Origin: Gammaproteobacteria bacterium
Lineage (GTDB): Bacteria; Pseudomonadota; Gammaproteobacteria; CBDDKY01
DNA length: 64,000 nt
Reading direction: 5' to 3'
Assembly (NCBI GenBank): GCA_965230455.1
Contig: CBDDKY010000003.1
Location: forward strand, 45,626-109,625
Shown here: piece after piece, positions 1 through 1,790 of the stretch
Layout of the letters: the number at the start of each line of letters is the position of its first letter
Numbering within the stretch: position 1 is the first letter of the stretch
Made by a program: the position numbers and the translations under genes
The notes under the pieces: model-generated
Database searches by the model: none
Told to the model about the DNA's origin: nothing
Seen by the model: the letters and a program-made list of their open reading frames with translations, nothing else

Positions 1-1790
1 ATTAAATCCTAGGAAAGTTTAAGCCACGAAGCGATAGACTCTGCACACATAGCGCCTTGCCTTGTTCAAGAGAAGACATACCCATTTGTCATTTACTTAA
101 AAAAATAGGATAAGTCAGCCTACCACCCTGGATTGCCGCGCTGCCGCTCGCAAAGACGAGTAAGAGAGCGCGTAAGCCATTGAAAGGCAATGCTTCTTTT
201 ATGGTGTACCCGTTAGTTTATTACTCAGTACGGTTTGCTTTCACAAGAAACGATGAACGCCCAAGCACACGTTAAAGAAATCATTCTACACCAACTTGTT
301 ACGCACCACCTTATTCGTCCTTGCGAGCGGCAGCGAAGCAATCCAAATTAAATCCTAGGAAAGTTTAAACCACGAAGCTGCGGACTCTGCACACATAGCG
401 CCTTGCCTTGTTCAAGAGAAGGCATACCCATTTGTCATTTATTAAAAAAATAGGATACGTCAGCCTACCACCCTGGATTGCCGCGCTGCCGCTCGCAAGG
501 ACGAGCAAGAGAGCGCGTAAGTCATTGAAAGGCAATACTTCTTTTATGGTGTACCCGTTAGTTTATTACTCAGTACGGTTTGCTTTCACAAGAAATGATG
601 AACGCCCAAGCACATCCTAAAAAAATCATTCTACACCAACTTGTTACGCGCCACCTTATTCGTCCTTGCGAGCGGCAGCGACGCGACCCAAGTTGAACGG
701 TAGGAAAGTGTCAACCACAAAGCCGTGCATACTGAGCGCCTAACGCCCTGTCTTGTTCAAGAGAGGGCATACCCACGGGTCAGGCATCAAAAAAAAGGAC
801 ACGTCAGCTTGCCACCCTGGATTGCCGCGCTGCCGCTCGCAAGGACGAGTAAGAGAGCGCGTAAGCCATTGAAAGGCAATACTTCTTTTATGGTGTACCC
901 GTTAGTTTATTACTCAGTACGGTTTGCTTTCATAAGAAATGATGAACGCCCAAGCACATCCGAAAAAATTCACTCGCTCTCAGTAGCTTGCAGCCCCTCT
1001 TATTCGTCCTTGCGAGCGGCCTGCGTCATCCATTCATTTTTTGTGGTAAAGGTGCGTCTGCTGAATGATGAACGCCCAAGCACACGCTAAAAAAACCATT
1101 CTACATCAACTTGTTACGCGCCACCTTATTCGTCCTTGCGAGCGGCAGCGCGGCAATCCAAATTAAATCCTAGGAAAGTTTAAGCCACGAAGCGATAGAC
1201 TCTGCACACATAGCGCCTTGCCTTGTTCAAGAGAAGACATACCCATTTGTCATTTACTTAAAAAAATAGGATACGTCAGCCTACCACCCTGGATTGCCGC
1301 GCTGCCGCTCGCAAGGACGAGCAAGAGAGCGCGTAAGCCATTGAAAGGCAATGATTCTTTTATGGTGTACCCGTTAGTTTATTACTCAGTACGGTTTGCT
1401 TTCACAAGAAACGATGAACGCCCAGGCACACGTTAAAGAAATCATTCTACACCAACTTGTTACGCACCACCTTATTCGTCATCGCGAGCGGCAGCGACGC
1501 GACCCAAGTTGAACGGTAGGAAAGTGTCAACCACAAAGCCGTGCGCACTGAGCGCCTAATGCCCTGTCTTGTTCAAGAGAGGGCATACCCACGGGTCAGG
1601 CATCAAAAAAAAGGACACGTCAGCTTGCCACCCTGGATTGCTTCGCTGCCGCTCGCAAAGACGAGTAAGAGAGCACGTAAGTCATTGAAAGGCAATACTT
1701 CTTTTATGGTGTACCCGTTAGCGTATTCTCAATACTGTTTACCCTCATAAAGAATGACAAACACGCAAGCACACCCCAGAGAAGTCATTA
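1..1790 (+). repeat. Tandem array A of a ~345-bp satellite-like unit, at least 5 units. Each unit carries 35-bp imperfect inverted repeats (consensus ggattgccgcgctgccgctcgcaaRgacgaRtaag) about 145 bp apart. The array continues past the left window edge.
   Basis: The landmark 'aggaaagtt' recurs at about 11, 357, 702, 1172 and 1518, a period of about 345 bp with one ~470-bp unit. The arms at 130-164 and 310-344 match as reverse complements at 31 of 35 positions. The ORFs called here are repeat artefacts. Confidence 0.9.

What the first reader, a model, noticed from the sequence alone, without database searches (positions are those of the whole stretch)
1..1790. Three long tandem arrays (about 23 units in total) of a ~345-bp hairpin-containing unit, about 12% of the window
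Tandem satellite-like arrays of several kilobases are unusual in bacterial chromosomes. The same ~345-bp unit forms arrays at 1-1790 (open to the left), 27262-30578 and 59450-61975. Each unit contains 35-bp imperfect inverted repeats (ggattgccgcgctgccgctcgcaaRgacgaRtaag) about 145 bp apart. A unit can therefore be read either as a ~215-bp MITE-like hairpin element plus a ~130-bp linker, or as a cruciform-prone satellite. Units vary between two sub-types (an 'aattaaatcctagg' linker versus an 'agttgaacggtagg' linker) and in length (316-470 bp), which suggests unequal crossing-over. All three arrays sit immediately 3' of genes (EAL/HDOD, priA, the 1906-aa gene). No protein function is plausible: the recurrent 70-120-aa ORFs are the same sequence read repeatedly.
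Basis: seen in the sequence. Interest (0 to 1): 0.8.

Follow-up and report, generated by a model that had tools for sequence, protein, structure and literature searches.

The report
Tandem arrays of nuclease-linked inverted repeats
Three real, non-coding arrays of a 345-bp unit fill 12% of this bacterial window, and the unit's inverted-repeat arms belong to a repeat family that elsewhere flanks small GIY-YIG nuclease genes, so the arrays look like an unusually large and regular relative of the Neisseria NIME and E. coli BIME repeat arrays.

Summary
Arrays of a 343-347-bp unit lie at 1-~1815 (really two arrays joined at 1021-1064), 27282-30577 (opposite orientation) and 59443-61975. That is about 22 units and 12% of the window.

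The arrays are non-coding. No Rfam family, promoter or terminator pattern, or RNA covariation was found.

Each unit carries two inverted arms, CGTCnTTGCGAGCGGCAGCGnnGCAATCCA. This arm is not lineage-specific. Near-identical arms occur across many phyla, usually as tail-to-tail hairpin dimers with 13-108-nt loops. They flank single-domain 95-96-aa GIY-YIG nuclease genes in every context I checked.

The closest described systems are the Ssn nuclease with its NTS/SRM repeats (Chenal 2025), the CGTC-tagged REPs, and Neisseria NIME arrays. The published SRM search pattern does not match these arms, so membership is by resemblance only.

The 130-bp and 145-bp spacers have no homolog anywhere I searched. 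No solitary arm occurs in the other ~56 kb of the window.

Array ends and internal junctions recur at the same two points: the apex of one arm, and the start of module M1.

Best reading: NIME/BIME-like arrays of GIY-YIG-associated repeats, expanded by recombination. No nuclease gene lies in the window, and the rest of the genome could not be reached.

The parts
1..1020 (+). Array 1a. It is open to the left and holds about 2.7 units plus a terminal 83-bp module (M1 and half of REP-L). It ends in the REP-L apex at ...GCGAGCGGC.
1021..1064 (+). Junction between arrays 1a and 1b. It consists of a 19-nt spacer (1021-1039) and a 25-nt left-end sequence, TTTGTGGTAAAGGTGCGTCTGCTGA (1040-1064). The left-end sequence is 21/25 identical to the one at 59443-59467.
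   Evidence: no significant similarity to the unit in either orientation
1065..1815 (+). Array 1b. It has two full units (1065-1410 and 1411-1755), followed by a decayed M1-like tail up to about 1815. It abuts the 3' end of the EAL/HDOD gene (1876-3243, minus strand).
27282..30577 (-). Array 2, with units reversed relative to arrays 1 and 3, about 9.6 units. It starts 50 bp after the priA stop codon and ends 115 bp before the GNAT gene. Both terminal copies carry a distinct M2 variant that is the inverse of M1 variant b.
27523..27689 (-). Tandem duplication of the 83-bp module (M1 + REP-L up to its apex). The new junction joins GCGAGCGGCA directly to ATGATGAAC.
59443..59467 (+). 25-nt left-end sequence of array 3 (TTTGTGCTGAGGGTACGTCTGCTGA), shared with 1040-1064.
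59468..61975 (+). Array 3, seven units plus a terminal 83-bp module. It ends in the REP-L apex (...GCGAGCGG). It lies 3' of the 1906-aa ORF.
60225..60418 (.). One example of the tail-to-tail element: REP-L (CGTCCTTGCGAGCGGCAGCGCGGCAATCCA, 60225-60254), then the 130-bp L1, then REP-R (60384-60418). The window holds 42 full arms, 21 on each strand, all inside the arrays.
   Evidence: (31-bp consensus helix between the arms)
61976..63099 (-). IS630-family insertion sequence, 2 nt beyond the end of array 3. It is not part of the repeat. A second copy lies at 43250-44373.

Best explanation
What the arrays are. They are non-coding, DNA-level repeat arrays built from a palindromic element. The element has two inverted arms (CGTCnTTGCGAGCGGCAGCGnnGCAATCCA) with their CCA tails facing each other across a 130-bp insert (L1). 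It is iterated head to tail with a ~145-bp spacer (M2+M1).

What the arms are. They belong to a cross-phylum repeat family. In other bacteria this family forms short hairpin dimers and flanks single-domain GIY-YIG nuclease genes. That arrangement matches the one described for the Ssn single-strand DNA nuclease and its NTS/SRM hairpin repeats, and the one in Neisseria NIME arrays.

Inferred mechanism:
(1) The arms are recognition sites for an Ssn-like nuclease encoded elsewhere in this genome. It would act on them when the DNA is single-stranded and nick a few nucleotides 5' of CGTC.
(2) The element is the non-autonomous counterpart of an arm-nuclease gene-arm element.
(3) Arrays grew, and are kept alike, by recombination between units within and between arrays. 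Breakage and rejoining are favoured at the apex of the REP-L arm.
(4) The arrays therefore act as hot spots for single-strand cleavage and recombination next to the flanking genes, as proposed for NIME arrays.

Status of each part. Shown: the anatomy, the non-coding nature, the arm family and its link to GIY-YIG genes elsewhere, and the recurrent junctions. Inferred: steps 1-4.
For: Reality and non-coding nature. The arrays are real and periodic. All six frames are full of stop codons. Rfam gave no hit. Array 3 has no promoter-like site inside it and no terminator-like site, fewer than in shuffled sequence. RNAalifold found no covariation, and its consensus fold is dominated by a 31-bp helix between the two arms across L1.

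The arm family is widespread. Of the 109 matches, 73 (in 67 loci) sit in the same GATTGC...CTCGCAAnGACG context. The hosts include Alphaproteobacteria, Desulfoarculaceae, Cyanobacteria, Bacteroidota, Brocadia, Fibrobacter and Firmicutes. 59 of the 73 have a tail-to-tail partner 13-108 nt away, median 26. Thirty-base arms identical to the window's occur in high-GC metagenome contigs.

Link to GIY-YIG genes, tested in both directions. From motif to gene: the only three GIY-YIG genes in the 101 loci lie within 200 bp of arms. From gene to motif: homologs of one such 96-aa protein (Pfam GIY-YIG, E = 9e-17) were looked up in 14 loci representing 7 distinct contexts. All have GTCATTGCGA...GCAATC arms within 1-105 bp. 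Several have one arm upstream and an inverted arm 1 bp after the stop codon, so the gene sits where L1 sits here.

Agreement with the literature. Ssn is a 94-aa single-domain GIY-YIG nuclease specific for single-stranded DNA. It binds the hairpin repeat CGTCATTCCCGCGMAVGCGGGAATCYRG and cuts just 5' of it. Its genes are arranged NTS-ssnA-NTS, and the authors compare the system with REP/BIME and RAYT (PMC11893778). Neisseria dRS3 is classed as CGTC-1 REP (PMC3733652). NIME arrays are dRS3 inverted repeats flanking 50-150-bp repeat sequences, with a G+C wave (PMC1797815). Here the arms are 63-65% G+C and the spacers 39-43%.

Short arrays of the same family elsewhere. Periods of 85-199 bp and 2-3 copies were found in other phyla, some directly beside the GIY-YIG gene.

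Junctions are not random. Three independent breaks fall within 2 nt of each other at the REP-L apex: position 1020, position 61975, and the 83-bp duplication. The subtype i/ii switch starts about 4 nt further on, just after the apex. Arrays 1b and 3 share the same phase and a 25-nt left end.

Exchange between arrays. Subtype-ii units are 92-96% identical across arrays 1 and 2 but only about 84% identical to their own neighbours.
Against: - No GIY-YIG gene lies in the window (tblastn; profile search with best E = 2.4). The rest of the source genome could not be read, so a cognate nuclease is assumed.
- The published SRM search pattern finds none of the arms, although positive controls pass.
- A single arm does not fold better than shuffled sequence (dG -5.7 kcal/mol, z = -0.37). 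NTS, in contrast, is a self-folding hairpin.
- The base after CGTC is almost never the canonical A (1 of 38 arms), so the arms may be poor or diverged substrates.
- The recurrent junctions lie at the arm apex, not at the Ssn-type cut site 5' of CGTC.
- No solitary copy occurs in about 56 kb outside the arrays, which is unlike typical REP, MITE or SRM families.
- I could not confirm that the flanked GIY-YIG genes belong to the Ssn clade (cd10448), because no CDD library was available.
Confidence: 0.6

Rival explanations
1. Passive satellite. A single palindromic element, a relic of a repeat family no longer active in this genome, was amplified purely by RecA-dependent unequal crossing-over or replication slippage. 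No dedicated nuclease is involved and there is no function.
For: Identity is higher within arrays than between them. The edge copies are decayed or divergent. No nuclease gene lies in the window. The base after CGTC is non-canonical.
Against: Array ends and internal junctions recur within 2 nt at the arm apex and at the start of M1. Nearly identical subtype units are embedded in different arrays. Three arrays lie within 64 kb with no dispersed seed copies. The arm core is invariant while the spacers vary.
Confidence: 0.22
2. Array of small RNA genes or a structured cis-acting RNA, for example 3'-UTR stabilisers or tandem sRNA genes.
For: All arrays lie 3' of genes. If transcribed, the arms would form a 31-bp helix. 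One small hairpin in L1 shows a T-A / T-G / C-G series at a single base pair.
Against: Rfam gave no hit. Array 3 has no sigma-70-like promoter inside it and no intrinsic terminator pattern. None of the 68 predicted pairs shows a double change, and the covariation term is -0.12. Array orientation relative to the upstream gene differs between arrays. The spacers have no homolog elsewhere.
Confidence: 0.06
3. MITE family mobilised by a DDE transposase present in the window (IS630, IS4 or IS21 type).
For: The unit has long terminal inverted repeats. The region is rich in insertion sequences, and an IS630 copy abuts array 3.
Against: The IS630 ends (TATAGCAATTTCAC...) bear no resemblance to the arms. 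No dispersed single copies exist. Elsewhere the arms flank GIY-YIG genes, not DDE transposases.
Confidence: 0.03
4. Assembly artefact: a single unit, or a few, expanded by the assembler.
For: Long near-identical tandem repeats are error-prone in assemblies. No reads were available.
Against: The window comes from a 1.52-Mb contig. Units differ by 1-20% in ordered, unit-specific ways. The arrays include embedded subtype units, an 83-bp partial module and unique flanks.
Confidence: 0.04

Closest known systems
Neisseria intergenic mosaic elements (NIME arrays: dRS3 inverted repeats flanking RS elements)
   Same: Both are arrays of short G+C-rich inverted repeats that begin with CGTC, alternating with 19-214-bp A+T-richer repeat segments. 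Both show a G+C wave and lie next to genes. Arrays are dynamic in length. dRS3/NTS is bound and cut by a small GIY-YIG nuclease, SsnA (PMC1797815, PMC11893778).
   Different: The arm sequence differs: ATTGC...GCAAT with an interrupted stem here, against ATTCCC-N8-GGGAAT in Neisseria. Only two spacer classes alternate, in strict 345-bp periodicity for up to 9.6 units. Neisseria shows a mosaic of more than 100 RS families. The spacers are long (130 and 145 bp). No solitary copies occur in the window. The host is an isolated gammaproteobacterial lineage.
Ssn nuclease with NTS/SRM repeats (Chenal et al. 2025)
   Same: The arms share the CGTC 5' tag and the AATCC(A/G) 3' end. The same arm family flanks single-domain 95-96-aa GIY-YIG genes on both sides. 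The family is spread across phyla.
   Different: The published SRM pattern does not match. A single arm is not a good hairpin, and the stable structure is the arm-arm dimer. No ssn-like gene lies in the window. No activity has been tested.
CGTC-tagged REP superfamily (Di Nocera et al. 2013)
   Same: Shared features are the CGTC tag, a 4-nt apex (GCAG), the CCA tail, and arrangement as inverted dimers.
   Different: The stem is 4+3 bp and interrupted, not a clean 8-9 bp. The first stem base is not A. Dimer partners are 130-145 bp apart. The repeats are clustered only, not dispersed.
E. coli BIME-2 / REP clusters with RAYT (TnpA-REP)
   Same: Palindromic units alternate in orientation, are separated by two conserved linker types, and are iterated in tandem. 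They are associated with a domesticated single-strand-specific nuclease whose gene is flanked by the repeats.
   Different: BIME uses GTAG-type REPs and an HUH tyrosine transposase, with a unit of about 100 bp. Here the arms are CGTC-type, the associated genes are GIY-YIG, and the unit is 345 bp.
MITEs such as Correia elements (CREE)
   Same: Long terminal inverted repeats enclose a non-coding core of 100-150 bp.
   Different: No target-site duplication was identified. There are no dispersed copies. The elements are iterated head to tail in arrays.

Membership tests
Ssn-related motif (SRM/NTS) repeats | 5' CGTC tag that gives the motif an orientation | tested here: met
   CGTC / GACG is invariant in both arms of all 19 aligned units.
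Ssn-related motif (SRM/NTS) repeats | Matches the published degenerate SRM pattern HGTCWYN(0-2)YYVSBRHN(0-5)WNVSBRGN(0-2)RNCYNB | tested here: not met
   There are 0 matches in the window on either strand. NTS and NTSvar positive controls match. The GIY-YIG-flanking arms in L025, L047, L093 and L109-L122 also fail.
Ssn-related motif (SRM/NTS) repeats | Each motif is a self-folding hairpin | tested here: not met
   A single arm folds at -4.3 to -5.7 kcal/mol, with z between -0.37 and +0.14 against shuffles. The stable helix is arm to arm.
Ssn-related motif (SRM/NTS) repeats | Motifs flank a single-domain GIY-YIG (Ssn) gene | tested here: inconclusive
   For the same arm family in other genomes this is met: 3 loci found from the motif and 7 contexts found from the protein. 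In this window there is no GIY-YIG gene. The rest of the genome is unreachable. Membership of those genes in the Ssn clade (cd10448) was not checkable.
Ssn-related motif (SRM/NTS) repeats | Bound and cut as single-stranded DNA by the cognate nuclease | not testable with these tools
   Needs biochemistry.
CGTC-tagged REP superfamily | CGTC tag, 8-9-bp stem starting AT, 4-5-nt loop, CCA tail | tested here: inconclusive
   The tag, the 4-nt GCAG apex and the CCA tail are present. The stem is only 4+3 bp with bulges. The first stem base is C, G or T in 37 of 38 arms.
CGTC-tagged REP superfamily | High-copy copies dispersed in intergenic regions | tested here: not met
   All 42 arms lie in the three arrays. 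None was found elsewhere, using a fuzzy search allowing up to 7 mismatches and nhmmer at E<=10. This covers only 64 kb.
NIME array | Multiple inverted-repeat elements separated by 19-214-bp repeat segments, with a G+C wave | tested here: met
   Arms alternate with 130-bp and 145-bp segments. G+C is 63-65% in the arms and 39-43% in the spacers.
NIME array | dRS3 sequence ATTCCC-N8-GGGAAT and a mosaic of many RS families | tested here: not met
   The arm is ATTGC/CTTGC...GCAAT. Only two spacer classes with 2-4 variants each alternate, and they do so regularly.
BIME / REP-RAYT | GTAG-tagged REPs and an HUH tyrosine transposase | tested here: not met
   The arms carry CGTC, not GTAG. Pfam annotation of the window ORFs found no Y1/HUH transposase.
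MITE | Terminal inverted repeats, target-site duplication, dispersed copies | tested here: not met
   Inverted repeats of 58-83 nt are present. No dispersed copies exist. No duplication was identified at the array ends.
Integron cassette array / attC cluster | attC sites with RYYYAAC / GTTRRRY core sites and an integron integrase | tested here: not met
   The nearest candidates (GTTACGC, GTTAGTT) do not fit GTTRRRY on reading the sequence. No integrase lies in the window. The 'cassettes' are all the same sequence.
Structured RNA or sRNA gene array | Rfam match, covariation, own promoter and terminator | tested here: not met

The most novel reading that the evidence does not exclude
The arrays could be a new kind of self-propagating bacterial satellite. 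In this reading a 345-bp unit, or a whole array with a defined 25-nt left end and a right end at the arm apex, spreads to new gene-3' sites. It would be amplified as a concatemer, for example by rolling-circle copying of a single-stranded circle released by an Ssn-like nuclease. The result would be islands of single-strand cleavage sites every 345 nt on both strands. Such islands could control recombination or DNA uptake around the flanking genes, and they would occupy a tenth or more of the chromosome in this host-associated-looking lineage.
Probability: 0.12. Interest if true: 0.8.

Novelty: new variant of a known kind. Interest (0 to 1): 0.5.

Why it matters
NIME arrays were reported as specific to Neisseria. 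Here a distant gammaproteobacterium carries arrays with the same architecture but a 345-bp strict period, up to 3.3 kb long, covering 12% of 64 kb.

The arms tie these arrays to a recently described class of small GIY-YIG nucleases specific for single-stranded DNA. They also show that a whole class of GIY-YIG-flanking repeats (ATTGCGAG...GCAATC) escapes the published SRM search pattern.

If the host genome encodes the matching nuclease, these arrays would be natural multi-site substrates. They could be used to study how such nucleases build repeat arrays and shape recombination near genes.

Tried and rejected
- Protein coding. All six frames are full of stop codons. A 19-aa ORF in M1 is broken in many copies.
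- L1 or the spacers as remnants of a GIY-YIG gene. There was no hit with tblastn or a profile search and no motif in six-frame translations of L1.
- Rfam families, in the window and in ten loci with typical hairpins: none.
- RNA structure. No covariation was found. The single compensatory-looking pair in L1 is not enough.
- Promoters and terminators in array 3: no terminator-like site, and the single promoter-like match lies outside the array in the adjoining IS630.
- Homologs of the whole unit. None was found in plasmids or phages. A spacer-specific pattern found nothing in viral contigs. The arm-based metagenome scan found only arm-length matches.
- Source genome and close relatives. The nearest PriA is 54% identical and the nearest LeuRS 64%. 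No comparative genomics of the arrays was therefore possible.
- By-eye impression that the array flanks are inverted copies of the M2/M1 boundary. This is not significant against shuffles, p > 0.08.
- Covariation between paired arms at the variable positions (the base after CGTC and the NN dinucleotide). None is consistent for either pairing (read).
- IS630 as the mobiliser. Its ends are unrelated to the arms.
- Literature search by sequence strings returned only primers.
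Full report
**1. Observation**

Tandem Repeats Finder reports period-345 arrays at both ends and in the middle of the window, with 88-92% matches. I read all three regions and cut them into units at the ATGATGAACGC anchor.

Nineteen full units are 343-347 bp long, with a mean column identity of 90%. Array 1 runs from 1 to about 1815 and array 3 from 59443 to 61975, both in one orientation. 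Array 2 runs from 27282 to 30577 in the opposite orientation.

Four corrections apply:
- Array 2 starts 20 nt later than stated.
- Array 1 is two arrays joined at 1021-1064.
- The unusual unit lengths come from an extra 83-bp partial module (27523-27689), the junction at 1021-1064, and a 10-bp duplication.
- The inverted arms alternate, so they lie 129-130 bp apart on one side and about 145 bp apart on the other.

**2. Anatomy of the unit**

Each unit has five parts, in this order:
- M1, about 65 bp, in two variants.
- REP-L: CGTCnTTGCGAGCGGCAGCGnnGCAATCCA.
- L1, 130 bp, in at least three variants.
- REP-R, the inverse of REP-L.
- M2, about 90 bp.

The nearly perfect arm core is 31-35 nt. Imperfect complementarity extends to 58-83 nt. 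The arms are 63-65% G+C and the spacers 39-43%.

As single-stranded DNA, two units fold at -122.7 kcal/mol with z = -7.3. The fold is driven entirely by arm-arm helices. A single arm folds no better than shuffled sequence.

**3. Not coding and not an evident RNA**

- Every frame has 19-67 stop codons per array.
- Rfam finds nothing.
- Array 3 has no promoter-like site inside it and no terminator-like site, fewer than in shuffles.
- RNAalifold finds 68 pairs, none with a double change, and a covariation term of -0.12.
- Array orientation relative to the upstream gene differs between arrays.

**4. The arm is a cross-phylum repeat**

Of 109 matches, 73 (in 67 loci) sit in the same GATTGC...CTCGCAAnGACG context. 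The hosts are Alphaproteobacteria, Desulfoarculaceae, Cyanobacteria, Bacteroidota, Brocadia, Fibrobacter, Christensenellaceae and others.

The usual form is a tail-to-tail dimer: CGTCATTGCGAG...GCAATCCAG - loop - CTGGATTGC...CTCGCAATGACG. The gap is 13-108 nt, median 26.

A stricter 28-base pattern found arms identical to the window's in high-GC metagenome contigs. Only the arm matched there, and nothing resembled M1, L1 or M2. The whole unit has no match in plasmids or phages, and a spacer-specific pattern found nothing in viral contigs.

**5. Link to small GIY-YIG nucleases**

I recalled that such hairpins accompany small GIY-YIG genes and tested this in both directions.

From motif to gene: the only three GIY-YIG genes in the 101 fetched loci lie within 200 bp of arms.

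From gene to motif: I took the 96-aa single-domain protein of L093 (Pfam GIY-YIG, E = 9e-17) and found homologs. I looked up six of them in their contigs. All 14 loci, representing 7 distinct contexts, carry GTCATTGCGA...GCAATC arms within 1-105 bp of the gene. In L115-L121 one arm lies 16-55 bp upstream and an inverted arm starts 1 bp after the stop codon. The gene therefore sits between the arm tails, exactly where L1 sits in the window.

**6. What is known**

Di Nocera et al. defined CGTC-tagged REPs by a CGTC tag, a short stem, a 4-5-nt loop and a CCA tail. They found no dedicated transposase and classed Neisseria dRS3 as CGTC-1 (PMC3733652).

Bentley et al. described NIME arrays as dRS3 inverted repeats flanking 50-150-bp RS elements. 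The arrays show a G+C wave and variable length, and were reported as not seen outside Neisseria (PMC1797815).

Chenal et al. showed that SsnA is a 94-aa single-domain GIY-YIG protein that binds the dRS3-containing NTS hairpin as single-stranded DNA. It cuts a few nucleotides 5' of the hairpin. Homologs across bacteria are flanked by related motifs (SRM), and the arrangement resembles REP/BIME with RAYT (PMC11893778).

The window's arm shares the CGTC tag and the AATCC(A/G) end with NTS. The published SRM pattern nevertheless finds no arm here. It also finds none next to the GIY-YIG genes I examined, although positive controls pass. I therefore call the arms Ssn-like by association and architecture, not SRM members.

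**7. Arrays elsewhere**

The same arm family forms short tandem arrays in other phyla, with periods of 85-199 bp and 2-3 copies. Some lie directly beside the GIY-YIG gene. The window's arrays have the same architecture on a much larger scale: a period of 345 bp and up to 9.6 copies spanning 3.3 kb.

**8. Dynamics**

Units are 91% alike within arrays and 85% alike between arrays. Subtype-ii units (A1_2, A1_5, A2_5) are an exception: they are 92-96% alike across arrays and about 84% alike to their own neighbours. A3_6 matches A1 units at 94-95%. This points to exchange between arrays as well as local homogenisation.

Junctions recur at fixed points:
- Array 1a ends at GCGAGCGGC|, array 3 at GCGAGCGG|, and the 83-bp duplication joins GCGAGCGGCA|ATGATGAAC. 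All three breaks fall within 2 nt at the apex of REP-L.
- The switch between subtypes i and ii begins about 4 nt beyond that point, just after the apex.
- Arrays 1b and 3 begin at the same base of M1 and share a 25-nt left-end sequence that is 21/25 identical.

By my estimate, three random breaks in a 345-bp unit would fall within 3 nt of each other with probability of about 1e-4.

The IS630 copy next to array 3 lies 2 nt beyond the array end, and the array does not continue after it.

**9. Distribution in the window**

All 42 full arms lie in the arrays. Neither a fuzzy search nor a profile search finds any arm or unit fragment in the other ~56 kb. This is unlike typical REP or MITE families.

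**10. Context**

The window is ordinary chromosome. It carries glnA, a sigma factor, uvrD, priA, rep, hsp33, psd, leuS, lptE and holA. It also carries three very large ORFs with no Pfam match, a Sel1-repeat protein and several insertion sequences.

It comes from a 1.52-Mb contig. The nearest relatives share only 54% (PriA) and 64% (LeuRS) identity. No GIY-YIG gene lies in the window, and I could not read the rest of the genome.

**11. Verdict**

The arrays are real, non-coding and unusually large. They are best read as NIME/BIME-like arrays of a palindromic element. Its arms belong to a GIY-YIG-associated (Ssn-like) repeat family, and the arrays were expanded and reshuffled by recombination, with a preferred break point at one arm's apex.

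The link to a nuclease in this organism is inferred, not shown, and so is any effect on neighbouring genes. I rate this a new variant of a known kind, of moderate interest.

Noticed in passing
L025, L047, L093, L109-L122 (other genomes): A whole class of repeats flanking small GIY-YIG genes (GTCATTGCGA...GCAATC) is missed by the published SRM search pattern, although NTS controls match. Censuses based on that pattern would undercount such repeats.
   Followed up: partly
window 43250-44373 and 61976-63099: Two copies of an IS630-family insertion sequence, 99.8% identical over 1124 bp, each at a TA. One sits 2 nt past the end of array 3.
   Followed up: yes
window 38000-46400: A low-G+C stretch (36-39% against 44% overall). 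It holds an IS4-like transposase (40809-41960), an IS630 copy, and ORFs with no Pfam match (42008-42727; 44336-46348, 670 aa). It is probably an acquired island.
   Followed up: no
window 6819-9998, 12643-17739, 53628-59348, 32403-33299: Three very large ORFs (1059, 1698 and 1906 aa) have no Pfam family; the only trace is a below-threshold LepB_N match. There is also a Sel1-repeat protein. Together with the many insertion sequences this hints at a host-associated lifestyle.
   Followed up: no
window 19297-20433 and 21425-22537; 20428-20465, 22556-22582: Two paralogous ATPase genes (AAA_14 / ATPase_2). Each has a short 14-bp tandem repeat at or just beyond its 5' end.
   Followed up: no
window 51277-52524: One ORF combines an N-terminal fatty-acid desaturase domain with a C-terminal ISL3 transposase fragment. 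This suggests an insertion-sequence remnant fused to, or truncating, the gene.
   Followed up: no
window 63160-63915: An IstB-like IS21 helper ATPase gene lies at the right edge of the window. The partner istA would lie beyond the window.
   Followed up: no
window arrays, base after CGTC and the NN dinucleotide in each arm: The base after CGTC is C, G or T in 37 of 38 arms. In other genomes it is A in 53 of 73 arms. This position and the NN dinucleotide vary freely and do not covary between paired arms.
   Followed up: partly
window arrays, M1 variant a (e.g. 29026-29038 region; 'CATCAACTTGTTA'): About half of the units carry a 12/13 match to the IHF consensus WATCAANNNNTTR in M1. This recalls the IHF site in some E. 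coli BIME linkers, but it may be chance.
   Followed up: no
one search hit table: Many homologs of the arm-flanked GIY-YIG protein sit on contigs shorter than 2 kb. This is as expected if their repeat-rich surroundings break short-read assemblies.
   Followed up: no
window 38991-39090: A 50-bp direct repeat, two copies at 92% identity, in an intergenic region at the edge of the low-G+C stretch.
   Followed up: no
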